Source: Candidatus Hydrogenedentota bacterium
GTDB taxonomy: Bacteria; Hydrogenedentota; Hydrogenedentia; Hydrogenedentales; SLHB01
Direction: 5' to 3'
DNA: 64,000 nucleotides
Assembly (NCBI GenBank): GCA_036769985.1
Contig: DAIPKA010000004.1
Coordinates: forward strand, 161,096-225,095
In this document: in pieces, positions 14,779 through 26,086 of the stretch
Layout of the letters: each line of letters begins with the position of its first letter
How positions within the stretch are numbered: position 1 is the first letter of the stretch
Translations under genes and position numbers: made by a program
The notes under the pieces: model-generated
The model's database searches: none
Told to the model about the DNA's origin: nothing
What the model saw: the letters and a program-made list of their open reading frames with translations, nothing else

Positions 14779-15858
14779 ATGACGTCCAAAGAACGCGTAC
14801 TTGCCGCCATCAACCACGAGCAACCGGATCGTGTGCCAATCCAGACGTATCTCACGCCGGAAATTCACAAGGTGCTGGTCGACCACTTCGGAACCAACGA
14901 CATCCTGCCGATTCTCGGCGTCGACTTCCGTGGCGTCGGCCCAAGGTTCGTCGGCGAACCGAAACCCATTCCCGAGGGATGCCAGTTCGTGGACGAGTGG
15001 GGCACGGGATACAAAACCATCCAGTTCGAGACGGGCGCCTATGAAGAGGCGTCGTACTTGCCGCTGGCGGAACTCGAAACGCTCGATGACGTCGAAGCCT
15101 ATCCGTGGCCGACGGCGGATCAGTTCGACTTCTCAGGCATCGAGGCCCAGTGCGATGCGCTCAAGGACTTCGCCATCTGCTGCAGCGGCGCCGGCACACC
15201 GGACATCGTGAACGGCGTCAGCCGAGGCCGCGGCATGGAACGCGTCATGATGGATATCATGATCGAGGACCCCGTCGGCGTGGCCATCATCGACAAGCGG
15301 TGCGACACACTTTACGAGCGGTGCCGCTGTACGCTCGAGGCCGGAAACGGCAAGATCGACATCCTGTGCACCGGCGAGGATTGCGGATGCCAAGCCGGCC
15401 CCATGTTTCCGCTCGAGGTGTTCGATCGCTTCTTCCGCCCACGCCTCAAACGGTTCTACGACCTCGCCCACGAGTTCGGCGCCAAGGCCATGATGCACTC
15501 GTGCGGCAACACGCGGAAACTCATGCCGCGCTTTATCGAGATGGGCCTCGACGTCCTCGATGCGATGCAGCCGGAACCGCCTGGAATGGTGCCCGAGGAG
15601 ATCAAGGCCGAGTTCGGTGACAAGCTGGCCTTCTGCGGCCTCATCAGCACGCAGCAAACGCTGCCCTTCGGCACCGAAGCGGATTGCCGCGCCGAGGCCC
15701 GCCACCGTCTCGAGGTCATGACGCCCAACGGCGGCTACATCTTCAGTCCGGCGCATTGCATCCAATCCGACACGCCGTTGCGCAACGTCCTCGCCATCTA
15801 CGAGGAAGCCCTCGGCCTAGCGCCGGAGACCCTCCTCAACTACCGGAAGACTCCGTAG
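14779..15858 (+). CDS. Uroporphyrinogen decarboxylase (URO-D) family protein, paralog 2.
   Basis: MTSKERVLAAINHEQPDRVPIQTYL is a canonical URO-D family N-terminus. An AGGGAG RBS precedes it. The track ORF from 14455 includes a translation of the 9-bp repeat (PTDPTDPSNPSN) that I consider non-coding. Confidence 0.8.
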   Translation: MTSKERVLAAINHEQPDRVPIQTYLTPEIHKVLVDHFGTNDILPILGVDFRGVGPRFVGEPKPIPEGCQFVDEWGTGYKTIQFETGAYEEASYLPLAELETLDDVEAYPWPTADQFDFSGIEAQCDALKDFAICCSGAGTPDIVNGVSRGRGMERVMMDIMIEDPVGVAIIDKRCDTLYERCRCTLEAGNGKIDILCTGEDCGCQAGPMFPLEVFDRFFRPRLKRFYDLAHEFGAKAMMHSCGNTRKLMPRFIEMGLDVLDAMQPEPPGMVPEEIKAEFGDKLAFCGLISTQQTLPFGTEADCRAEARHRLEVMTPNGGYIFSPAHCIQSDTPLRNVLAIYEEALGLAPETLLNYRKTP

Positions 15859-17883
15859 CCACGTCTCGTTCGAGGCCTATCTGGTCGAAAGGAATCGACT
15901 GGAAGCCGGGCACGTCGCGAAACACCTCGGAGTCCTCGCGGAACTGGAAGTTCAGGGCCGCCGCGTCGACGAAGCCCGGATCGTGATCCAAGATAGCGTT
16001 GTCCTTGGCTTCCCAATTCCCTTTGACGAAGTCGTCGCAGTTCACCACGACGTTGCGGCACGCGCGGTTGACGCGGGGTTTGTCCGATGGCGTCATGAAT
16101 CCGGCCAGATCCGGATAGCGGTCGAGGTAAGGCGGCTTCGTGATGTCCACTTCCTTAAGCAGGTTGTTCTGCCAGAGATCGGCGGCGACCATCTCCCACC
16201 AGCGATCGTCATCCCACGGCGCTTGACGAATGGCGGCGGAGCACTCGATGAACATGTTGTTCTCAACGAGGTTGTCGTGGCCGCCATGGACGAATACCGC
16301 GCCGAAGTTGCCCCCGGACGCCTTGTAGAACACGTTGCCGAATACCGTCTGCCCGCCGGAGCCGTCGTCGAAGTAGACCGCGCAACTGCCGTGGGTGAAG
16401 GTGCTGCCGATGTGGTGCCAGAAGTTGTAGCGGAGGATACTCCCGCGCTCGGACGGATTCCGGCCCATGTAGAAGGCGCCGCAATCATCGCTATCCTGGC
16501 TGATGTGGTGGATCTCGTTGTACTCGATGACGTGATCGTTGCCAGCGAGGCCAATGGACTGGTGCGGCGCGTCGTGGAGCAGGTTATGGGCGAGCCGCAC
16601 GCCGACGCCGCTCAGATGAACGTGATAGGCGTGCGTCCGCTGCCGCCGCGAGACACGCCAGATGTGGTTGTTGACGGCTTCGTGCCCACACGGCGTCAAG
16701 GTCCGCCGATCCCCGCCGCCAATGCGCAGGCCCGCCGTGCCGATATCGAAGATATCGCAGCCCTCGACGCGGTGCTTGAGCCCGCCGTCGACAATGATGC
16801 CGTCGTGGCCGGTGTTGCGCACGGTGCATCTCGATACCGCGCAGCCTTCGCCGCCTCGGATGCGAATGGCCGTGCCGGCGCACGCCTCGACCGTCAGCCC
16901 GTCGAGGATGACATGTGATGCGCCATCGACGTCAATCACCGGTTCCGTGAGTGTGGACAAGAGGATGCGCGCGTCGGCGAGGGCCGCCGGCGGCCAGAAC
17001 AGGAGCGCACCGGACTCGCGGTCGAGGTAGTATTCGCCCGGCTGATCGAGTTCCTCGAGCAGGTTGACCGCACAATACCGTCTCGGCGCCGGGTTGCCGC
17101 TGCCAAGTCCATAGCAATGCGGCTGCACGAAGGTGATGTGCCGCTTCTCGGTATCGATCTCCGCCACCCGGATCGTCTCGGCGCGCCAGTCGAAGCACCA
17201 GTAGCCGTGAAGCCATACCGCCGGCGCCGTCGTCCAGCGCGACGGCCGGTCGCCCGCGTACTCGAAGGTCCCCGGCTTGTCCGACGCATGGTTGCGCCAT
17301 GGCGCCGGCCCGCTCTCGACAATGCCGGCCACCTCGGCCCAACCCTCGTTCGGCCACTGGGCCAGCATCATCCGCGCGTCGTTGAAAAACAGTTCCGGCA
17401 CGGCGGCCGGCTCACTGAAGGCATCCGGCAGCGCGCCATACTCGGTTACGCCGAGGGCCTTGAGGTCGGCGCCAACGACCTGATCCCGCGCCGCCGGATC
17501 GATCCGCGCCGCGAGCGCTTCAACCGCCACCGGGCCGAACGACCCTGCCGGAATCACCACGCCGCCGACGAACCGCACCTCCTCGCCCGGCGCGGCGCGA
17601 AATACCACCGGCCGATCCGACTCGCCGCTGTCCTCCTCGGACAACCGAAGACTCTCCGACAGCACGTAAGTGCCGCTGTGCAGCCACACCGTCGCCCCGT
17701 CCTCCGGCAGGCCCTCGGCGGTCTTCTTGGCGCGCAACGCGCCTTGCGCCGCCACCAGCGACGCCAACGGCGCGGCCCCCGTCCCTACGGCCTCATCGCT
17801 CCCGCCCGGCGCAACGTGGATATCGAACGCCGCTGCCGCAAACCCCACACCAATCACCGTCAACGCGATGCAGATAGAACGCA
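15836..17883 (-). CDS. Secreted right-handed parallel beta-helix repeat protein (pectate-lyase-fold).
   Basis: Signal peptide MRSICIALTVIGVGFAAAA. Multiple beta-helix rungs (NTGHDGIIVDGG..., IGGGD..., NHIWR..., HNLLHDAPHQSIGLAGNDHVIEYNEIHH). A GAGGAGG RBS. Confidence 0.75.
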
Positions 17884-17948
17884 TGTCGCCTCCTCGATTC
17901 CTGGGTGGCCCGGCCCCATCGTAGCGGCGATACGCGGCCGCGTCAACC

Positions 17949-19361
17949 TCACGAAGCATCGGACAGCCGACGGATGAGGTCGCTCAGTTGCTCTTTGGCA
18001 TCCCCGAAGCAAAGGGTCACGTTCTTCTGCTGATACAAGGGGTTCGCCACACCGCAGTAGCCCGGCTGCGCATCGAGATTGCAGACGATGACATGGCCCG
18101 CTTCGCCGGCGCGCAGCACGGGCATGCCGTAGATGGGAGTACCTTCCGCGGTGGAGGCCGCCGGGTTCACGACATCATTGGCGCCCACGATGATCGACAG
18201 GTCCGCGTCTTTGAAGCTGTCGTTGATGGCGTCCATGTCGAGGAACTTCTCGTAGGGAACATCGGCCTCGGCCAGGAGTACGTGCATGTGGCCCGGCATG
18301 CGCCCGGCCACCGGATGTATGGCAAACCGCACGGTGTTGCCTCGGGCTTCGAGGGCATCGGCAAGTCGCTTCACTTCGTGCTGAGCCTGTGCCAGCGCCA
18401 TGCCGTAACCCGGCACGATGATGACATCCTTGGCGTCGTGCAACACCGAGTCGAGCGAAGGCCGACCAACCGATGCCTCCGCCGTCTGAACGGGCGCGAC
18501 CGATGCCGCCTGCGCGACCTCGTCCGCAGGCACGCCACCGATGGCCGCCACGCCTCGGCCGGTGAGGATAGCGACCAGATCTCGGTTCATCGCCCTGCAC
18601 ATAATCCGCGTAAGAATAAGACCGGAGGTTCCCACGATCGCCCCGGCGGCAACCAGCAGCAGGTCCCCCACCGCAAACCCGGCGATGGCCGCGGCAAGTC
18701 CGGAAAGGGCGTTGAGCAGGCAGATGCCAACCGGCATATCCGCCCCGCCTATGCGAAGGGCAAACACGACTCCAAAACCGCTCACGTTAATCAACAACAA
18801 CAGGGCAGCCCCGAGCGCAAGCCAAGACGACGATCCCAGAATGACGACCGTGAAGATCGCCATCGCCAAGCAAGCCGTGAATGCCCAGATACCGTAGTTC
18901 GTTATCACCACGGGACGCTGCGGGATCCGGCGATCGAGCTTCGCCGCGGCGATGGAGCTCCCCGCAAACGTGAATCCGCCAACGGAGATCGCCAGGGCCG
19001 ACGAAAGCCGGGCCACGAGCGACGGGACCAGCGTCTGCTCATACAGAAGAGACAGCGGGACCAAGGCCGAGGCGGCGCCCCCCAGTCCGTTCAGGAGGGC
19101 CACCAGTTGAGGCATCTGGATCATGGCGACGCGAACGGCCAGCACATAGCCAATGACCGCACCCACCGCCAGCGAGCCGAGAATCACCCCGTGGGTCATG
19201 ACGCCGTGGGTGCCCAGCGTCAGAATGATGGCTCCCAACACAGCCGACGCGCCCAGGAGGTTCCCCGCCACCGCGGTTCGAGGCGAATTCATGAGGCGAA
19301 TACCCATGACCACCCCCACCGCAAGACCAAAAGCGACGATGGTGTGTTCGTCACCCCCCAT
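17949..19361 (-). CDS. pntB: NAD(P) transhydrogenase subunit beta.
   Basis: Multi-TM N-terminus. C-terminal dIII NADP(H) domain: IIVPGYGMALAQAQ...GANDVVNP...GMPVL. Confidence 0.92.
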   Translation of the reverse strand: MGGDEHTIVAFGLAVGVVMGIRLMNSPRTAVAGNLLGASAVLGAIILTLGTHGVMTHGVILGSLAVGAVIGYVLAVRVAMIQMPQLVALLNGLGGAASALVPLSLLYEQTLVPSLVARLSSALAISVGGFTFAGSSIAAAKLDRRIPQRPVVITNYGIWAFTACLAMAIFTVVILGSSSWLALGAALLLLINVSGFGVVFALRIGGADMPVGICLLNALSGLAAAIAGFAVGDLLLVAAGAIVGTSGLILTRIMCRAMNRDLVAILTGRGVAAIGGVPADEVAQAASVAPVQTAEASVGRPSLDSVLHDAKDVIIVPGYGMALAQAQHEVKRLADALEARGNTVRFAIHPVAGRMPGHMHVLLAEADVPYEKFLDMDAINDSFKDADLSIIVGANDVVNPAASTAEGTPIYGMPVLRAGEAGHVIVCNLDAQPGYCGVANPLYQQKNVTLCFGDAKEQLSDLIRRLSDAS

Positions 19362-19374
19362 ACCAGATTACTCC

Positions 19375-19656
19375 TCAGCTTTTCCTGAACATGCGGAGCA
19401 TGCGGTGCGTTACCACGAAGCCGCTCACCACATTCACCGTGGCCAGTATGACCGCCACGGCACCTAGAATGACGCTTCCGGCACGCACGGCGCCAGCCGT
19501 AGCCACCAACGCACCGAGCACGGTGCATCCCGACAGGGCGTTCATCCCCGACATGAGCGGCGTGTGAAGCAGCGGGGGAACGCGGCGCACGGCCCGAGTC
19601 CCGACCAGACCGGACACCACAAAAACCATCAACAACAGGAACGACTCCATGCTCAA
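19375..19656 (-). CDS. pntAB: NAD(P) transhydrogenase subunit alpha part 2 (membrane part).
   Basis: 93-aa three-TM protein lying between pntAA and pntB. This is the typical split-alpha arrangement. Confidence 0.85.
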   Translation of the reverse strand: MSMESFLLLMVFVVSGLVGTRAVRRVPPLLHTPLMSGMNALSGCTVLGALVATAGAVRAGSVILGAVAVILATVNVVSGFVVTHRMLRMFRKS

Positions 19657-20840
19657 CCCGCCGCAGCGTTGGCGCTCATGGCCTCCAGCGCGCCCTCGTG
19701 CACAATGCGCCCCCCCTCCGTAACGAGCGACGAAGCGATAATCTCATCGCTGCGCGCCACGCGCACGACACCCTCTTCAACCAGATATGAAACAAAACTG
19801 AAAATATTGTGGGAAAAGAGCCACGTCGCCGTCAACGGCACCATACCGGGAATATTCTTGATGCCTTCGATCGTGAGGCCGTGCCACTCGATGCACCGGC
19901 CGGGCTCCGTGACGGCACAGTTCCCTCCCTGGTCAATCGCCACGTCCACAATGACGGAACCGGGGGCCATGGCGGCCGCCATGGACTCCGTCACCAGGAC
20001 CGGCGCCACCTTGCCGGGAACCAGCGCCGCGAGGATCAACACATCGGCGCTCGCGACCGGACCGGCCAACGCAGCCTGTTCCTTGAGCAACCACTCCTTG
20101 GGCAAATGCCGGGCATAGCCGCCCTTGCCCTCCGCGAGCTCCGGCGGAATCCCGAGATCGACGACCTTCGCGCCCAGGCTCTTGGCATGCTCGCACGCCT
20201 CGGGTCGGATATCCGCCGCATCGACCACCGCCCCAAGCTTCTTGGCCGTCGCCAAGGCCTGGAGTCCCGCGACCCCGATACCGACCGCCAACACCCGGGC
20301 GGGACGCACCGTGCCCACCGCCGTGCCGACCATGGGCATGAACTTGGGCAGACGATCCGCGGCCATCAGCACCGCCTTGTACCCGGCCACCGTACTCATC
20401 GACGTCAGCGCATCCATGGACTGCGCCCGGGAAATCCTCGGCACCCCGTCCAACGTGAAGGCCGTTACATTGCGTTCCGCCAACAACCTCACCATAGGGT
20501 GGTTCGCAGGAGAGGCCGGGTGGAGGAACGCAATGAGGAACTGCCCCGCCCCCATCATCTCCACCTCGTGTTTCCCATGGCTCGCATTGAACAGGGGCTC
20601 CTTAACCTTCAGGACAAGACGCGCACCGGCATAGAGCCCCTCAACGTCGTGCACCATCTCGGCGCCGGCCTGTTCATAGCCCGAATCGGCCACACCAATG
20701 CCTTCACCCGCGCCACACTCCACAAGCACGCGCGCACCCTCCGCGACCATCTTCGTCACGGTCTCCGGAACCGCCGCCACGCGACGCTCTCCGTCCATAA
20801 TCTCCTTGGGAACGCCGATCGTGAGTCCTTGAAATCTCAT
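19653..20840 (-). CDS. pntAA: NAD(P) transhydrogenase subunit alpha part 1 (alanine dehydrogenase/PNT domain).
   Basis: IGVPKEIMDGERRVAAVPETV... and the Rossmann motif VLAVGIGVAGLQA. It overlaps pntAB by 4 nt. Confidence 0.92.
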   Translation of the reverse strand: MRFQGLTIGVPKEIMDGERRVAAVPETVTKMVAEGARVLVECGAGEGIGVADSGYEQAGAEMVHDVEGLYAGARLVLKVKEPLFNASHGKHEVEMMGAGQFLIAFLHPASPANHPMVRLLAERNVTAFTLDGVPRISRAQSMDALTSMSTVAGYKAVLMAADRLPKFMPMVGTAVGTVRPARVLAVGIGVAGLQALATAKKLGAVVDAADIRPEACEHAKSLGAKVVDLGIPPELAEGKGGYARHLPKEWLLKEQAALAGPVASADVLILAALVPGKVAPVLVTESMAAAMAPGSVIVDVAIDQGGNCAVTEPGRCIEWHGLTIEGIKNIPGMVPLTATWLFSHNIFSFVSYLVEEGVVRVARSDEIIASSLVTEGGRIVHEGALEAMSANAAAG

Positions 20841-20889
20841 CTGCCCCTCCTATGGGATGTCTTCCCGTTCAAACGACGAAACGTGAAGC

Positions 20890-21312
20890 CTATAGGTGGT
20901 AGTCGCCCGAAGCCTCCGGCTGATACACAATCTCCTCGATACACAAGCGGCTCTCACCCTTGGGTACCTTCAACGATACCACATCGCCCAGGCGACGCCC
21001 CAAAATCGCTGCGCCCACGGGAGCCGTCACCGAGATCCGATTCTCCGCGGGGGCGCTCTCGGAAGGATAGACGAGGGTCACGGTCATTTCCGTATTCGTG
21101 TCTACGTTTCGAAGGCGAACCGTGGAACGCATGGTGATCATATCCGACGGCACTTCCCCAGGATCAAGCGCGACGTCCGCGTCGTCGAGCGCCTTGGCCA
21201 ACCGCCGGACGTAATCTAAGTCACGCGTATCCGCTTGCTCCAAGAGCGACTCGAGACACCTCGCCAATCGTTGACGATCCTGGGCCGTGATCAATGCTGT
21301 TTCGTTTGCCAT
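20890..21312 (-). CDS. rnk: Rnk (regulator of nucleoside diphosphate kinase), GreA/GreB C-terminal-domain family.
   Basis: The C-terminus VPSDMITMRSTVRLRN...VYPSE...ISVTAPVGAAILGRRLGDVVSLKVP...EEIVYQPEASGDYHL parallels E. coli Rnk (HDVVTMNSRVKF...YQPEAAGDYLL). Confidence 0.8.
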   Translation of the reverse strand: MANETALITAQDRQRLARCLESLLEQADTRDLDYVRRLAKALDDADVALDPGEVPSDMITMRSTVRLRNVDTNTEMTVTLVYPSESAPAENRISVTAPVGAAILGRRLGDVVSLKVPKGESRLCIEEIVYQPEASGDYHL

Positions 21313-21363
21313 GTCAAGATCTCCGTTGGCTTCGATGGACCGGGGAAGCAAGGAATAGGGACC

Positions 21364-22458
21364 TCACAGGTGGTAGTCGCCGGCGGCCTCTGGCTGATAG
21401 AGAATCTGCTCGATCACACAGCGGCTGTTCTTTCCGGTACCGGGCACAGGAACCTGGAACACGTCTCCCGCTCGGCAACCCAGCATCGCTGTTCCGAGCG
21501 GACTCAGAATAGAGACGTTCTCCTTGTTGGCCTCGAGATCCTTCGGAAACACCAACCGGCACACGGTGTCGTAGCCGGTTTCCACATCAAGCACGCGAAC
21601 TCGCGAGTTCATCGTCACCACATCGGATGGCACCTCGGCGGGATTCGCTATCGTGCCTCCATCCAACTCGGCATCCAGCGCATCCAAGTAAACCTTGCAG
21701 GCGTCCCGCCCGAACACCCGCGCCACCTTGACCAGTTCCTTCAGCCGAGCGAGGTCGAACGACGTCAAGTATATCTTGCGCGAGGTCACCTCCCCGTCCG
21801 TTCTCGCGGCGGCACCTGAGCCAAGCCGGTCCGCACTAAAGCCGTCCAGAAGCACATCGCAGATCTGTCGCGCCACCTGTACGAACGAATCCGACTGTCG
21901 AGGGCCCGACCAGTACCCCATGAAAGTGCCGATGATGCCCTCCAGGCTGCGGGCCACACACAACTCCGAGCTGCTCTTCCGGCCCAACTCACGAAGGTAT
22001 CGGCCAAACAAACCCTCTACATTCCTGAGATACTGTTGGTAGAAACCATTGACGCGCGCGTCCAGTTGCTCCGGACTCGGCTCGATTCCCAGGTCCGGCG
22101 GATAGGAGAAGGTCTGGAAGAACAGCCGATCTTGACTGTAGTTGAGCAGGCGCAGCCGGATGAGGTCCTCGAATGCCTTCTTGGCGTTGTGCCTCACGGC
22201 GAAGACCTGATCGAGCCGGGCCTCCACGCGCTCTCCTATCCGCGTGATGACCTCCGAAAACAAGCTGAGCTTGTCACCGAAAAGGTTGTACAGCGATCCC
22301 ACCGAGTACCCCGCCTCTCGCGCAATATCCTCCATCGTCGCCTGACGATAACTCCGTTGCTGAAACACCCGCGCCGCGGCATCCAACACCATGTCATTCC
22401 GACGCGCCCGTTCTCGCTCTCTGCGCACCTTGGCAGAAGGCTGCACACCATTCAGCAT
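21364..22458 (-). CDS. TetR-family HTH domain fused to an Rnk/GreA-C-terminal domain (364 aa).
   Basis: The N-terminal ATMEDIAREAGYSVGSLYNLFGDK is a TetR HTH signature. The C-terminal 120 aa, VPSDVVTMNSRVRVLDV...LSPLGTAMLGCRAGDVFQVPVPG...IEQILYQPEAAGDYHL, is an Rnk domain. A GGGAGG RBS. Confidence 0.8.
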   Translation of the reverse strand: MLNGVQPSAKVRRERERARRNDMVLDAAARVFQQRSYRQATMEDIAREAGYSVGSLYNLFGDKLSLFSEVITRIGERVEARLDQVFAVRHNAKKAFEDLIRLRLLNYSQDRLFFQTFSYPPDLGIEPSPEQLDARVNGFYQQYLRNVEGLFGRYLRELGRKSSSELCVARSLEGIIGTFMGYWSGPRQSDSFVQVARQICDVLLDGFSADRLGSGAAARTDGEVTSRKIYLTSFDLARLKELVKVARVFGRDACKVYLDALDAELDGGTIANPAEVPSDVVTMNSRVRVLDVETGYDTVCRLVFPKDLEANKENVSILSPLGTAMLGCRAGDVFQVPVPGTGKNSRCVIEQILYQPEAAGDYHL

Positions 22459-22484
22459 GATCGACCTCCCGCATTCGTCGTTTC

Positions 22485-22518
22485 TGAACGATCAATTCAC
22501 ACTGTGAACCCTTGTTCA
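22485..22518. promoter_or_regulatory. Candidate TetR-type operator: the palindrome TGAACccttGTTCA plus an upstream TGAAC half-site.
   Basis: TGAAC at 22485-22489 and 22505-22509, and GTTCA at 22514-22518. They lie 30-60 nt upstream of the TetR::Rnk start codon. Confidence 0.35.
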
Positions 22519-23060
22519 TCCTAGCACAAGACCGACGATGTGTCAACAAGTACCCAAGAGAACACCAATCCACGCAGGCAGGCTCCTTTGCCGCTCGGAC
22601 AGCGCGATCATGGGGGAACCATTTCCCAGAACGGTCATTCACGTAAAACCGCTCCATTACCGGATCTCCGCCCGTGCAACGCTCGAGATGGGCCGTGTCC
22701 GTTGCGGGCAAGAACCCCCAAAGCTTCCGCCGTGCCAGGATGTCCGATCCCCGAACGCGACCACCGCCTCCGCGCTCCCCGCGGCCTCATTCCCCGCATC
22801 CCCAGCACCCCGTGAGTATCGAGCGCCACCGTATACGCCACACCAATCATCGTCAGCATAGTGCCACGGAAACGTATCTCGCCTCCTCGACTCATGGATG
22901 GCCCGGCTCCCTCGTGGCAAGGCCATATCACGCCATCAAGAACGCCTGCATCCACTGTCACACCGCCATGGCAGCGAGACGCGTCGCGCGAGCGCCTTCG
23001 AAACCCGGCCACGTGCAGGATCTGCGGTCGGGCGTTCTCCCCCTTGGGACACGCAAAGCA

Positions 23061-23258
23061 CTACTGCGTTCGCCAGTACCACACGCCTACCGATGCCGCG
23101 GCGAGAACCAACACTGCTGCGCAAAGAACCCACCAGTGCCGCCACCAAGGGATGTTATCGATTCGCTTGCCTTTGTGATTCCAGAGCACCGCCTCTTCGG
23201 GATAGTCGATCTTGAAAGCAGAACGAGGCAGCTCCATGTTCATCTGAGCCGCACTCAT
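23061..23258 (-). CDS. Possible small membrane protein (65 aa, Trp-rich C-terminal TM segment).
   Basis: WWRHWWVLCAAVLVLAAASVGVWYW is a hydrophobic segment. No good RBS; divergent from the FGE gene. Confidence 0.2.
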   Translation of the reverse strand: MSAAQMNMELPRSAFKIDYPEEAVLWNHKGKRIDNIPWWRHWWVLCAAVLVLAAASVGVWYWRTQ

Positions 23259-23346
23259 TCCCTGCGGGTGCCTACCTCGCGACGACGCTTTGTCCTCTCA
23301 AGGCGGATTGGTATACTCGTAGACGAGACTGAGGAGGAGCTCGGAC

Positions 23347-24169: not shown

Positions 24170-26086
24170 ATGCACAATGACACGACGTTGGCACGTCTCG
24201 ACGAGTTCCGGACCGAGTATCCCATGAAGTTCGCCTCCGAAGAGGAGGTCTTTAGCCACATTCACCCCGGTGACCGGATCTTTATCGGTACCGGCTGCGG
24301 CGAGCCCCAGTACCTGGTTCGGGCGCTCGTGAGCTTCGTCGAAGCCCATCCGAAGGCCTTTTTCGACGCCGAAGTGATGCACGTGTGGACGCTGGATCTC
24401 GCGCCGTACACCGAGGAGAAATTCAAGTCGAACTTCCGCCACAACTCCTTCTTCATCGGCCGCCAGACAAGAGGCGCGGTCAACCAAGGCGCCGCGGACT
24501 ACACGCCCGTGTTCCTGTCCCATGTTCCGAGACTCTTCTACGACGGCCGTGTGCCGATCGACGTAGCGCTCGTCCAGATGTCCCCGCCCGACGAGCACGG
24601 CTACATGAGCCTCGGCATCAGTGTGGACATCGTGAAGGCCGCCGTCGAGAGCGCTACGCTGGTCATCGCGCAAACCAACGCTCACATGCCGCGCGTGTTG
24701 GGCGACACGTTCTTCCATATCCGCGACATCGACTACATCATCCCCTATGACGAGCCGCTGCTCACCTACGGCAACGAAGTATCAAGCGATACCGCCAACC
24801 GGATCGGAAAATACGTCGCCCGGATCATCCAGGATGGGGACACCATCCAGGTCGGCTACGGCAGCATTCCGAACGCCATTATGGCCAACCTCAGCGACCG
24901 CCGCGACCTCGGCGTGCACACCGAGTTGCTCAGCGACGGACTCGTAGATCTGATCCGCAAGGGCGTGATCACCAATGCCAAGAAGACCGTGAATCGAGGC
25001 AAGACGGTGGCGGCATTCTGCATGGGCAGCGCCTCGACGTACGAATTCATCGACAACAATCCCGGCATCGAGTTCCGCCCGGTCGACTACACGAATAACC
25101 CCCTCACGATCGCGCGCCAAGTCAACATGACCGCGATCAACAGCGTCCTCGAGATGGACCTCACCGGCGAGGCGACGGCGGAATCCATCGGCAAGACCTT
25201 CTATAGCGGCATCGGCGGCCAAGCGGACTTCATGCGCGGCGCCATCATGGCCCCGGGCGGGAAAACGATCATCGCCATGCAGTCCACCGCCGAGAACGAG
25301 TCCGTCTCCCGCATCGTGCCCTTCCTCGCCGAGGGCGCCGGTGCCACCCTCAATCGAGGCGATGTCCATTATGTCGTCACCGAGTTCGGCATCGCGTACC
25401 TCCACGGCAAGAACGTTCGCGAGCGCGCCATGGATCTCATCTCCATCGCCCATCCCAAGTTCCGCCCATGGCTCATCGACGAAGCCAAGAAACTCCGCCT
25501 AATCTACGCCGACCAAGCCTTCATCCCCGGCGAACCGGGCCTCTATCCCGAGCATCTCGAACGCGAGCGCACAACATCGAGCGGCATGCACGTCCTGCTG
25601 CGCCCCGTCAAGATCAGCGACGAACCGTTGCTCAAGGACTTCTTCTACGACCTCTCCGACAAGAGCATCTACCGACGGTTCATGTCCCTCCGCAAACACA
25701 TGCCCCACGAGCGGCTTCAGGAATTCGTCGTCATCGACTACACCAAGGAGATCGTCATCCTCGCCTCCGTCCACGACGAGGGCGGCCGGGAAGAAGTCGT
25801 CGGCATCGGCCAGTACAGCATTGTCGAGGGCACGCACTCCGCGGATGTCGCCTTCGTCATCTCCGACTCCTATCAGAACCGAGGCATCGGATTCGAACTG
25901 CTCAAGTACCTCGCGTACTTGGCCAAGGGCAAAGGCATCCTGGCGTTCACGGCCGATGTGCTCACGGAGAACGTGCCGATGCTCCGCGTGTTCGAAAAGC
26001 TCTCGCCCGATATACACCGGCGCATCGAGGGCGGCGCCGTCGAGCTCCACATCCCCCTATCCTCGAGCAGCGACTACAGCGGATAG
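24170..26086 (+). CDS. Acetyl-CoA hydrolase/transferase family domain fused to a C-terminal GNAT acetyltransferase.
   Basis: N-terminal two-thirds is the CoA-transferase fold (HPGDRIFIGTGCGEPQ, DVALVQMSPPDEHGYMSLG, GIGGQADF). The C-terminal 170 aa is GNAT (QNRGIGFELLKYLAYLA). It is a paralog of 32224-34104. Confidence 0.88.
   Translation: MHNDTTLARLDEFRTEYPMKFASEEEVFSHIHPGDRIFIGTGCGEPQYLVRALVSFVEAHPKAFFDAEVMHVWTLDLAPYTEEKFKSNFRHNSFFIGRQTRGAVNQGAADYTPVFLSHVPRLFYDGRVPIDVALVQMSPPDEHGYMSLGISVDIVKAAVESATLVIAQTNAHMPRVLGDTFFHIRDIDYIIPYDEPLLTYGNEVSSDTANRIGKYVARIIQDGDTIQVGYGSIPNAIMANLSDRRDLGVHTELLSDGLVDLIRKGVITNAKKTVNRGKTVAAFCMGSASTYEFIDNNPGIEFRPVDYTNNPLTIARQVNMTAINSVLEMDLTGEATAESIGKTFYSGIGGQADFMRGAIMAPGGKTIIAMQSTAENESVSRIVPFLAEGAGATLNRGDVHYVVTEFGIAYLHGKNVRERAMDLISIAHPKFRPWLIDEAKKLRLIYADQAFIPGEPGLYPEHLERERTTSSGMHVLLRPVKISDEPLLKDFFYDLSDKSIYRRFMSLRKHMPHERLQEFVVIDYTKEIVILASVHDEGGREEVVGIGQYSIVEGTHSADVAFVISDSYQNRGIGFELLKYLAYLAKGKGILAFTADVLTENVPMLRVFEKLSPDIHRRIEGGAVELHIPLSSSSDYSG

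What the first reader, a model, noticed from the sequence alone, without database searches (positions are those of the whole stretch)
20890..22518. TetR DNA-binding domain fused to an Rnk/GreA-type RNA-polymerase secondary-channel domain, tandem with a standalone rnk and an upstream palindromic operator
Rnk-family domains bind the RNAP secondary channel, as Gre factors do. Here a full Rnk domain (ending YQPEAAGDYHL, like E. coli Rnk) is appended to a TetR-family HTH through a linker of about 130 aa. A second standalone Rnk gene follows immediately.

A TetR repressor carrying its own RNAP-channel-binding domain would be an unusual way of coupling operator binding to direct polymerase contact. 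The palindrome TGAACccttGTTCA, with a third TGAAC half-site 20 bp away, sits 30-60 nt upstream of its start. The pntAA-pntAB-pntB transhydrogenase operon lies immediately downstream on the same strand.
Basis: partly seen in the sequence, partly recalled or inferred. Interest (0 to 1): 0.7.

Follow-up and report, generated by a model that had tools for sequence, protein, structure and literature searches.

The report
TetR repressor fused to Rnk domain
A complete small-molecule-sensing TetR repressor carries, on a short flexible tether, a complete copy of Rnk (a protein that docks on RNA polymerase but has no known job); this rare, conserved and unstudied combination could show what Rnk is for.

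Summary
ORF 21364-22458(-) encodes a 364-aa protein with three parts:
- a complete TetR regulator (HTH plus helical ligand/dimerisation domain, aa 1-207);
- a disordered tether of about 19 aa;
- a complete Rnk module (short coiled coil plus Gre-type globular domain, aa 227-364).

A free 140-aa rnk paralogue and pntAA-pntAB-pntB follow with no predicted terminator.

The palindrome is real. It is the first of two tandem operators that abut the -10 of a sigma70-type promoter, and this layout recurs at 18 orthologous promoters. The gene is therefore very probably autorepressed.

The fusion is rare: about 28-30 clusters among 1.84 billion representatives. It occurs mostly in Hydrogenedentota, with a few MAGs labelled Planctomycetota, Lentisphaeria and Omnitrophota. 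An Rnk-family gene follows it in 13 of 17 cases.

The TetR module and its operators derive from ordinary efflux-pump repressors. The appended Rnk module is what is new. I found no paper describing it.

RNA polymerase contact is inferred from E. coli Rnk and was not tested. The fused module has also lost a hairpin that is nearly invariant in other Rnks. I rate this a new variant of known kinds, of moderately high interest.

The parts
22541..22546 (-). -35 hexamer TTGACA of the promoter of the fusion operon
   Evidence: Promoter scan found TTGACA-17 nt-TAGGAT, 10 of 12 matches, with TG before the -10. A TTGACA-like hexamer occurs at the same distance in most of 18 orthologous promoters.
22518..22523 (-). 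-10 hexamer TAGGAT; its last T is the first base of operator O1
   Evidence: The same one-base overlap of -10 and O1 is seen in most orthologous promoters.
22505..22518 (.). Operator O1, a perfect palindrome TGAAC-AAGG-GTTCA (read on the - strand), 47-60 nt upstream of the ATG. It probably spans the transcription start.
   Evidence: It is the only exact match to TGAAYN4RTTCA in the window. TGArY-N4-RyTCA lies at the equivalent position in 18 of 18 fusion promoters. Exact matches in the 5.7-13 kb loci lie almost only there.
22485..22499 (.). Operator O2-like site TGAAT-TGATC-GTTCA. It is imperfect (5-nt spacer) and lies 5 nt after O1.
   Evidence: Read directly from the sequence. A second TGArY-N4-RyTCA palindrome lies 4-5 nt after O1 in at least 15 orthologous promoters.
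22465..22470 (-). Ribosome-binding site GGGAGG, 6 nt before the ATG
   Evidence: Sequence.
21364..22458 (-). TetR-Rnk fusion gene (364 aa plus stop)
21838..22458 (-). TetR module, aa 1-207: HTH (aa 25-70, nt 22249-22386) plus helical ligand-binding/dimerisation domain
   Evidence: Pfam TetR_N. NCBIfam Bacillus FadR model aligned over aa 21-208. PDB sequence hits 1VI0, 3WHB and 3VPR over aa 21-209. The AF2 model has nine helices at aa 7-206. Foldseek target-normalised TM-scores are 0.69-0.75 to FadR, FasR, PfmR and DarR.
21781..21837 (-). Flexible tether, aa 208-226
   Evidence: pLDDT below 50 for aa 208-224. In 20 homologues the tether is 15-21 aa long, unconserved in sequence and rich in A, G, E and P.
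21367..21780 (-). Rnk module, aa 227-364: short coiled coil (helices 233-249 and 252-266) plus Gre-type globular domain, ending YQPEAAGDYHL
   Evidence: Pfam Rnk_N and GreA_GreB. PRK05753 covers aa 226-363. Foldseek to E. coli Rnk 3BMB gives target-normalised TM-score 0.84, rmsd 2.7 A, 37% identity. Family invariants are kept except the W-x-VP-x-G hairpin.
20890..21312 (-). Free rnk paralogue (140 aa plus stop), 51 nt after the fusion gene. It belongs to a separate orthologous clade.
   Evidence: Pfam GreA_GreB, E 6e-22. PRK05753 scores 107 bits. Independent gene calls give 140 aa. It is 38% identical to the fused module, but 39-53% identical (range) to the free partners of other loci. The free partners are monophyletic.
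17949..20840 (-). pntAA (19653-20840), pntAB (19375-19656) and pntB (17949-19361): proton-translocating transhydrogenase, probably co-transcribed with the cassette
   Evidence: Pfam AlaDh_PNT_N/C, PNTB_4TM and PNTB. The gap after rnk is 49 nt, and the scan found no terminator-like site between the promoter and pntAA (the only two lie inside pnt coding sequence, fewer than in shuffles). The same order occurs in L003/L005, and the fusion is followed directly by pntAA in L013.

Best explanation
This is the first gene of a small, autoregulated operon (fusion gene, free rnk and, in this genome, pntAA-pntAB-pntB).

The protein is a whole TetR-family regulator. By analogy with the family it is a dimer, and it is probably released from DNA by a hydrophobic or acyl-type ligand.

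It binds two tandem palindromic operators, O1 and O2. These begin at the last base of the -10 hexamer and cover the start site and early transcribed region. When no ligand is bound, it shuts off its own operon.

A flexible tether of about 19 aa hangs from the end of the ligand-binding domain and carries a complete Rnk module. Like E. coli Rnk, this module most probably docks on the rim of the RNA polymerase secondary channel, without reaching the active site.

My preferred mechanism is that the operator-bound repressor uses this module to touch polymerase in cis. It would hold polymerase in a non-productive promoter complex, or keep Gre cleavage factors out of the channel so that polymerase cannot work its way past the repressor.

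The co-transcribed free Rnk paralogue would compete for the same site once the operon is induced.

Shown here: the architecture, its conservation, the operators, and the cassette with a free rnk. Inferred: repression, ligand control, polymerase docking, the effect in cis, and competition by the free Rnk.
For: Architecture:
- All three Pfam domains score above their cut-offs.
- The AF2 model has pLDDT 81, with two folded modules and a disordered linker.
- The Rnk module superposes on E. coli Rnk with target-normalised TM-score 0.84. The TetR module matches ligand-binding TetRs at 0.69-0.75.

Selection on the whole protein:
- About 67 clusters at 90% identity and about 28-30 clusters at 50% identity keep both modules down to 35% identity.
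- The fused modules are monophyletic.
- Tether length is held at 15-21 aa while its sequence drifts.

Autoregulation:
- 18 orthologous promoters show a -35/-10 pair followed immediately by two TGArY-N4-RyTCA palindromes 4-5 nt apart.
- Exact motif matches in the loci lie almost only there.

Cassette:
- An Rnk-family gene follows the fusion in 13 of 17 cases, including MAGs labelled as other phyla.

Polymerase docking:
- Gre and DksA globular domains bind the beta-prime rim helices (PMC7527559).
- The fused module keeps most family-wide invariant residues.

Generality:
- An unrelated DNA-binding regulator family, LysR, also occurs with a C-terminal Rnk module.

Plausibility of an anti-Gre role:
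- GreA helps polymerase pass repressor roadblocks and possibly escape promoters (PMC11014978).
Against: - No polymerase contact was tested. The AF2 run was single-chain only.
- The fused module has lost the W336-x-V-P339-x-G341 hairpin, which is 97-99% conserved in 70 free Rnks and present in E. coli Rnk. It has also lost D291, Y300 and E264. Its binding surface may therefore differ.
- It scores 102.7 bits, below the NCBIfam Rnk equivalog cut-off of 109.
- Operators that cover roughly -7 to +26 should exclude an open complex by plain occlusion, so no extra contact is needed for repression.
- The same dual operator, and often the same overlap with the -10, occurs in front of ordinary standalone TetRs that control efflux pumps. 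The promoter geometry therefore says nothing specific about Rnk.
- O2 in this window is imperfect.
- The ligand is unknown.
Confidence: 0.4

Rival explanations
1. Ligand-gated or DNA-sequestered Rnk acting in trans. The protein is mainly a secondary-channel factor. The TetR part parks it on its own operator and dimerises it. When the ligand appears, it leaves the DNA, and its two Rnk modules, together with the newly made free Rnk, occupy polymerase globally and antagonise Gre- or DksA-type factors.
For: - Rnk is proposed to act as an anti-Gre or anti-DksA competitor (PMC4598747, PMC7527559).
- The only operator found in 64 kb is at the gene's own promoter, so there is no sign of a wider DNA regulon.
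- The operon co-expresses a free Rnk.
Against: - An autorepressed regulator is normally scarce, which fits poorly with global occupancy of polymerase.
- If only trans action mattered, the free rnk under TetR control would suffice and the fusion would add nothing.
- The conserved tether length suggests that geometry matters.
Confidence: 0.2
2. The Rnk module is not a polymerase binder here. It is a protein-protein or sensor module, for example binding the free Rnk paralogue or another partner, and it modulates DNA binding by the TetR part in the manner of an anti-repressor partner switch.
For: - Both cassette Rnks are atypical at positions nearly invariant in generic Rnks. The fused module lacks the W hairpin. 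The free partner has N284R and L242C and also lacks W336.
- The two are less alike (35%) than either is to generic Rnks (43% and 40%).
- They are kept as a pair in 13 of 17 cases.
Against: - No Rnk-Rnk or Rnk-other interaction is known to me.
- 4 of 17 fusion genes have no free rnk directly downstream; one of these (L003 fusA) is followed by a second fusion gene that is itself followed by rnk.
- Most family invariants, including YQPEAAGDYHL, are retained in the fused module.
Confidence: 0.2
3. Functionally neutral gene fusion. A TetR repressor became fused to the first gene it regulated (an rnk). The two halves work independently, as a plain autorepressor and a plain Rnk.
For: - The TetR module, its dual operator and its promoter layout are those of ordinary local repressors that sit directly in front of their target operons.
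- Fusion of a regulator with its downstream gene needs only the loss of a stop codon.
Against: - The fusion has persisted down to 35% identity and into MAGs labelled as several phyla.
- The fused module forms a monophyletic clade with its own sequence signature (V245, R247, G250; loss of the W hairpin).
- Linker length is constrained.
- No unfused tetR-rnk pair was found among 120 loci carrying the operator.
- LysR-Rnk fusions arose independently.
Confidence: 0.15
4. Assembly or frameshift artefact joining two adjacent genes.
For: None found.
Against: The identical 364-aa protein is on 12 contigs, shown from two different JGI samples. Dozens of diverged homologues from four data sources keep one continuous ORF.
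Confidence: 0.01

Closest known systems
E. coli Rnk (regulator of nucleoside diphosphate kinase; PDB 3BMB) and the Nitrosomonas homologue 2PN0
   Same: The C-terminal 138 aa have the same two-part fold: a short coiled coil plus a Gre-type globular domain. Foldseek gives target-normalised TM-score 0.84 and 37% identity. The same family motifs are present: D-x-x-R-L, TMNS, LVFP and YQPEAAGDYHL.
   Different: Rnk is a free protein of about 136 aa. Here it is tethered to a DNA-binding regulator. The fused module lacks the W-x-(V/L)-P-x-G hairpin that E. coli Rnk has (HWELPGG) and scores just under the NCBIfam equivalog cut-off. Even for E. coli Rnk, only polymerase binding is known, not a function (PMC4598747).
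Standalone TetR-family efflux-pump repressors of the TetR_C_24 / YsiA-like type, and structurally the acyl-CoA-sensing FadR, FasR and PfmR
   Same: - Full-length similarity over aa 5-215 to standalone TetRs of about 205-230 aa.
- The same tandem TGAAY-N4-RTTCA operators next to the promoter.
- The same nine-helix fold.
   Different: Those proteins end after the ligand-binding domain and sit in front of RND or ABC efflux operons. The fusion family has an added tether plus Rnk module and sits in front of a free rnk instead of a pump.
GreA/GreB transcript-cleavage factors and Gfh1
   Same: Homologous globular domain (Pfam GreA_GreB). [quoted passage not shown]
   Different: There is no long GreA_GreB_N coiled coil. 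The tip motif is R-x-F-G rather than the acidic pair of GreA (D41/E44 in E. coli GreA, per PMC7527559). No cleavage or active-site action is expected.
Other C-terminal Rnk fusions seen here (LysR-Rnk, GNAT-Rnk, unknown 230-aa domain-Rnk, tandem double Rnk)
   Same: Rnk is used as a C-terminal add-on module. LysR-Rnk is a second case of a ligand-responsive DNA-binding regulator carrying Rnk.
   Different: The N-terminal partners differ. GNAT-Rnk and the unknown-domain fusions keep the W hairpin, whereas TetR-Rnk and LysR-Rnk do not. None is characterised, as far as my literature searches show.

Membership tests
TetR family of transcriptional regulators | N-terminal TetR-type helix-turn-helix (Pfam PF00440) | tested here: met
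   aa 25-70, E 6.3e-15, 55.1 bits against a cut-off of 24.
TetR family of transcriptional regulators | All-helical C-terminal ligand-binding/dimerisation domain (about nine helices in total) | tested here: met
   The AF2 model has nine helices at aa 7-206. Foldseek target-normalised TM-scores are 0.69-0.75 to FadR, FasR, PfmR and DarR. Sequence alignment to Bacillus FadR runs over aa 21-208. No Pfam TetR_C model passed on the fusion itself, but the closest standalone relatives hit TetR_C_24 and TetR_C_4.
TetR family of transcriptional regulators | Palindromic operator at or near the regulated promoter, typically its own | tested here: met
   Two tandem TGArY-N4-RyTCA sites abut the -10 at 18 orthologous promoters. 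Binding itself was not tested.
TetR family of transcriptional regulators | Small-molecule ligand releases the protein from DNA | not testable with these tools
   The ligand is unknown. Relatives regulate efflux pumps, and the nearest folds bind acyl-CoA or cyclic nucleotides.
Rnk (regulator of nucleoside diphosphate kinase) family | Gre-type C-terminal globular domain (Pfam PF01272) | tested here: met
   aa 277-341, E 7.7e-16, 58.3 bits against 26.9.
Rnk (regulator of nucleoside diphosphate kinase) family | Short Rnk-type coiled coil (Pfam PF14760) instead of the long Gre coiled coil | tested here: met
   aa 227-266, 24.4 bits against a cut-off of 23.7, which is marginal. The model shows helices at 233-249 and 252-266. 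The whole module superposes on 3BMB with target-normalised TM-score 0.84.
Rnk (regulator of nucleoside diphosphate kinase) family | Score above the NCBIfam equivalog cut-off (NF004396, 109 bits) | tested here: not met
   The fused module scores 102.7 bits and the free paralogue 107.3 bits. Both are just below 109.
Rnk (regulator of nucleoside diphosphate kinase) family | Family-wide invariant residues | tested here: inconclusive
   Kept: R227, D235, R238, L239, TMNS 282-285, LVFP 302-305, G322, G327 and YQPEAAGDxHL. Lost: W336, P339 and G341 (97-99% conserved in 70 free Rnks), plus D291, Y300 and E264.
Rnk (regulator of nucleoside diphosphate kinase) family | [quoted passage not shown] | not testable with these tools
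   Known for E. coli Rnk only (PMC4598747, citing Lamour 2008).
GreA/GreB cleavage factors | Long N-terminal coiled coil (GreA_GreB_N) with acidic tip residues that reach the active site | tested here: not met
   There is no GreA_GreB_N hit. Matches to the greA and greB NCBIfam models are far below their cut-offs and cover only the globular domain. The coiled coil is short, with an R-x-F-G tip.

The most novel reading that the evidence does not exclude
The TetR-Rnk protein would be the first known operator-bound repressor that reaches round to the secondary-channel rim of RNA polymerase. A DNA-tethered channel plug would lock polymerase at, or just after, the promoter by excluding Gre factors. 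A co-expressed free Rnk would act as its competitor, making a switch. This would also give the Rnk family its first function: a portable polymerase-docking module that regulators such as TetR and LysR can recruit.
Probability: 0.2. Interest if true: 0.85.

Novelty: new variant of a known kind. Interest (0 to 1): 0.62.

Why it matters
Factors that bind the secondary channel (GreA/B, DksA, TraR, Gfh1, Rnk) are known as free proteins that find polymerase on their own. Classical repressors and activators touch other polymerase surfaces.

A regulator that is covalently tied to a channel-rim binder would be a different way of coupling a specific DNA site and a small-molecule signal to the polymerase channel.

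It also offers a way into Rnk. According to the 2015 review PMC4598747, Rnk binds polymerase but has no known activity or phenotype, and my searches found nothing later that changes this.

The system is compact: one promoter, two operators, one fusion protein and one free paralogue. It could be rebuilt in vitro with simple truncation controls.

Tried and rejected
- **Frameshift or assembly artefact:** rejected.
- **Recent tandem duplication of rnk:** rejected. The fused and free modules are only 35% identical on average, and each forms its own orthologous clade.
- **The 130-aa linker:** rejected. It is the TetR C-terminal domain.
- **pnt as the conserved target:** only 3 of 17 cases (window, L003/L005, L013), so it is lineage-specific.
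- **Wider regulon in the window:** none. Matches with one mismatch are no more frequent than in shuffles (10 found against 11.6 expected).
- **Operator geometry as special to the fusion:** rejected. The same dual operator precedes many standalone efflux-type TetRs.
- **Unfused tetR-rnk ancestors:** searched for among 120 operator-bearing metagenome loci; no Rnk gene was found.
- **Proteins with two matched stretches in the representatives search:** these turned out to be double-TetR_N or double-Rnk proteins, not permuted fusions.
- **Rfam scan of the window:** no RNA family found.
- **Lamour 2008 paper:** not held.
- **AlphaFold-database fold search:** unavailable.
- **Mapping the lost W hairpin onto Gre- or Gfh1-polymerase structures:** not possible, because no coordinates were available.
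- **Literature searches for the fusion:** nothing relevant.
Full report
**1. What is in the sequence**

The minus strand of window 17949-22546 carries, in order:
- a promoter;
- two palindromes;
- a 364-aa ORF (21364-22458);
- a 140-aa ORF (20890-21312; the ORF listing extends it to a TTG at 21351);
- pntAA (19653-20840), pntAB (19375-19656) and pntB (17949-19361).

In the 364-aa protein, Pfam finds three domains, each above its curated cut-off:

| Domain | Residues | E-value |
|---|---|---|
| TetR_N | aa 25-70 | 6e-15 |
| Rnk_N | aa 227-266 | 4e-5 |
| GreA_GreB | aa 277-341 | 8e-16 |

The NCBIfam Rnk model covers aa 226-363. A Bacillus FadR (TetR-family) model aligns over aa 21-208.

Against PDB sequences, the C-terminal part aligns to E. 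coli Rnk (3BMB) and to 2PN0. The N-terminal part aligns to many TetRs, in some cases along its full length (1VI0, 3WHB, 3VPR).

An AlphaFold2 model built on 20 homologues has mean pLDDT 81. It shows:
- nine helices at aa 7-206;
- a disordered stretch at aa 208-224;
- a short helical hairpin (233-249 and 252-266);
- a beta-rich domain at aa 286-354.

Foldseek places the C-terminal module on E. coli Rnk with target-normalised TM-score 0.84, rmsd 2.7 A. It places the N-terminal module on ligand-binding TetRs (FadR, FasR, PfmR, DarR) at target-normalised TM-scores of 0.69-0.75.

The protein is therefore a whole TetR regulator, then a tether of about 19 aa, then a whole Rnk.

**2. Not an artefact, and rare**

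The identical protein (P0001, named only "GreA/GreB family elongation factor", Candidatus Hydrogenedentes) is called on 12 contigs, shown from two different JGI samples. The neighbouring genes are the same each time: fusion 364 aa, rnk 140 aa, pntAA, pntAB, pntB, then a beta-helix protein.

A word-indexed search of 5.8 billion proteins found about 67 clusters with the same TetR_N plus GreA_GreB architecture, at 36-54% identity. An exhaustive profile search of 1.84 billion representatives (50% clusters) found only about 28-30 full-length members. Below these, the hit list splits into free Rnks and free TetRs.

Among GTDB species representatives, 11 loci held the full fusion:
- 5 are labelled Hydrogenedentota;
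- the others are labelled Planctomycetota or Planctomycetaceae, Lentisphaeria, Omnitrophota or simply "bacterium";
- one is labelled Bathyarchaeia, probably a binning error.

These are MAG labels, which I did not verify.

Both modules are conserved across the family, and 35 columns are invariant across 20 sequences. The tether is 15-21 aa in all 20, with no sequence conservation.

**3. The promoter and operators**

The promoter scan finds TTGACA-17 nt-TAGGAT at 22546-22518 on the minus strand.

It is the only exact TGAAYN4RTTCA in the window. Taken alone, that is not significant: 15 of 100 shuffles gave at least one match.

The weight comes from comparison. In front of 18 fusion genes from different assemblies, a TTGACA-like -35 and a TAnnnT-like -10 are followed at once by TGArY-N4-RyTCA. 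After 4-5 nt a second such palindrome follows. Within each 5.7-13 kb locus, exact motif matches lie almost only there.

In this window the second site (22485-22499, TGAAT-TGATC-GTTCA) has a 5-nt spacer and is imperfect.

The operators should span roughly -7 to +26 relative to a start site about 7 nt after the -10. That is the position of a repressor, not an activator (inference from standard promoter geometry).

The scan found no terminator-like site between the promoter and pntAA; its only two hits lie inside pnt coding sequence and are fewer than in shuffles. The gaps are 51 nt and 49 nt. The fusion gene, rnk and pnt are therefore probably one transcript (inference).

**4. Where the TetR part comes from**

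- In 42 of them, a TetR matching the fusion's TetR module starts within 150 nt; the complete ones are about 205-245 aa.
- None of the 120 loci encodes any Rnk module.
- One short contig, L209, is the promoter of the L013 fusion, cut off by the contig end.

These standalone TetRs sit in front of efflux operons: membrane-fusion protein plus AcrB-type RND pump, outer-membrane factor, or ABC transporter. The closest standalone relative from the first search does the same. Many show a similar overlap of the -10 with the first operator.

The DNA-binding half, its operators and the promoter layout are therefore inherited from an ordinary class of local efflux repressors. What sets the fusion family apart is the added tether and Rnk module, and a free rnk in place of a pump.

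**5. The Rnk parts**

An Rnk-family gene follows the fusion gene directly in 13 of 17 cases. In one genome, two fusion genes lie in tandem before rnk and pnt.

| Comparison | Identity | Source |
|---|---|---|
| Fused modules with each other | mean 50% | |
| Adjacent free partners with each other | mean 55% | |
| Fused module vs free partner | mean 35% | |
| Fused module vs generic free Rnks | mean 43% | |
| Free partner vs generic free Rnks | mean 40% | |

In a neighbour-joining tree the 20 fused modules form one clade and the 5 free partners another. The pair is therefore old, not a recent duplication. A third clade, ending YQPEAAQHWTL, also occurs near some fusions.

The fused module keeps most residues that are invariant across 70 free Rnks from many phyla: D235, R238, L239, TMNS, LVFP, G322, G327 and YQPEAAGDxHL.

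It has lost the hairpin W336-x-V-P339-x-G341, which is 97-99% conserved in the free Rnks and reads HWELPGG in E. coli Rnk. It has also lost D291, Y300 and E264.

It has gained its own conserved V245, R247 and G250 at the coiled-coil tip.

The free partner is also atypical: TMRS instead of TMNS, C242, and no W336. I could not determine whether the hairpin touches polymerase.

**6. What is known about the parts**

[quoted passage not shown] Its coiled coil is too short to reach the active site, a deletion has no phenotype, and its function is listed as unknown. It has been suggested to act as an anti-Gre or anti-DksA factor (PMC4598747, PMC7527559, both citing Lamour et al. 2008, which I could not read).

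The globular domains of Gre factors and DksA bind the beta-prime rim helices (PMC7527559).

GreA helps polymerase pass repressor roadblocks, and has been proposed to help it break contacts during promoter escape (PMC11014978).

Six literature searches found no paper on a TetR-Rnk or LysR-Rnk protein.

**7. Mechanism**

- Well supported: an autoregulated TetR-type repressor, acting on two operators at its own promoter, controls an operon that also encodes a free Rnk and, in this genome, the transhydrogenase.
- Inferred from homology: the tethered module docks on the secondary-channel rim of polymerase.
- Preferred reading (confidence 0.4): the contact is made in cis from the operator-bound state. 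It would hold polymerase in a non-productive complex or exclude Gre factors, and the induced free Rnk would compete.

Arguments against are listed above. Plain occlusion would already repress, the promoter geometry is inherited, and the module has lost a near-invariant hairpin.

Rivals are action in trans after release by ligand (0.2), a non-polymerase partner such as the free Rnk (0.2), and a neutral fusion of a regulator with its target gene (0.15).

An independent fusion of Rnk to LysR-type regulators supports the general idea that DNA-binding regulators recruit Rnk as a module. Fusions to GNAT acetyltransferases and to an unknown domain show that Rnk is a portable module more broadly.

**8. 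Verdict**

The protein passes the membership tests for the TetR family. It is an Rnk-family module by fold and by Pfam, but it falls just short of the NCBIfam equivalog cut-off and lacks one family-wide motif. It is not a Gre cleavage factor.

- Novelty: a new variant (a new combination) of known kinds.
- Interest: 0.62.

Noticed in passing
P0109, P0112 (loci L092/L093 5001-6371): LysR-type regulators (HTH_1 plus LysR_substrate) carry a C-terminal Rnk module. This is a second, independent fusion of a ligand-responsive DNA-binding regulator to Rnk. These modules also lack the W-x-VP-x-G hairpin.
   Followed up: partly
P0089, P0093, P0097-P0105 (GNAT-Rnk); P0070-P0080 (unknown ~230-aa N-terminal domain plus Rnk); P0148, P0197 (tandem double Rnk): Further uncharacterised Rnk fusions. 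The N-terminal domain of about 230 aa in P0070-P0080 has no Pfam hit even at E 0.1. GNAT-Rnk and this family keep the W hairpin.
   Followed up: partly
L003 6001-7077 and 7372-8448 (GCA_964402555.1): Two TetR-Rnk fusion genes lie in tandem. Their Rnk modules are 57% identical, and each has its own promoter and dual operator. A free rnk and pntAA-AB-B follow, and then a bacterial eRF1-like (baeRF) gene.
   Followed up: partly
L007 9321-9572, L010 7799-8221, L012 5159-5626, L014 5211-5639: A third Rnk clade ends YQPE(A/S)AQHWTL instead of YQPEAAGDYHL. It lies near, or directly after, fusion genes in several Hydrogenedentota genomes, so this phylum has an expanded set of Rnk paralogues.
   Followed up: partly
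window 22547-23346: About 800 bp upstream of the fusion promoter have no convincing gene. Independent gene calls place only a 65-aa ORF there (23061-23258, minus strand), with no Pfam hit. There is no Rfam match. GC is 0.60, against 0.635 for the window.
   Followed up: partly
window 24170-26086 (+), and a second copy in L094 1-235: Acetyl-CoA hydrolase/transferase is fused to a C-terminal GNAT acetyltransferase domain. Two such genes flank an acetyl-CoA synthetase-like gene, an MFS transporter and formate-tetrahydrofolate ligase in the same contig.
   Followed up: no
window 15836-17959 (-): A beta-helix protein lies directly after pntB. As listed (707 aa) it overlaps the end of pntB, while independent gene calls start it 64 nt after pntB (682 aa). 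It may belong to the same transcript.
   Followed up: no
L013 (DATKVG010000080.1): A contig carrying a typical Hydrogenedentota-type fusion followed by pnt is deposited in a MAG labelled Candidatus Bathyarchaeia archaeon. This is probably a binning error.
   Followed up: no
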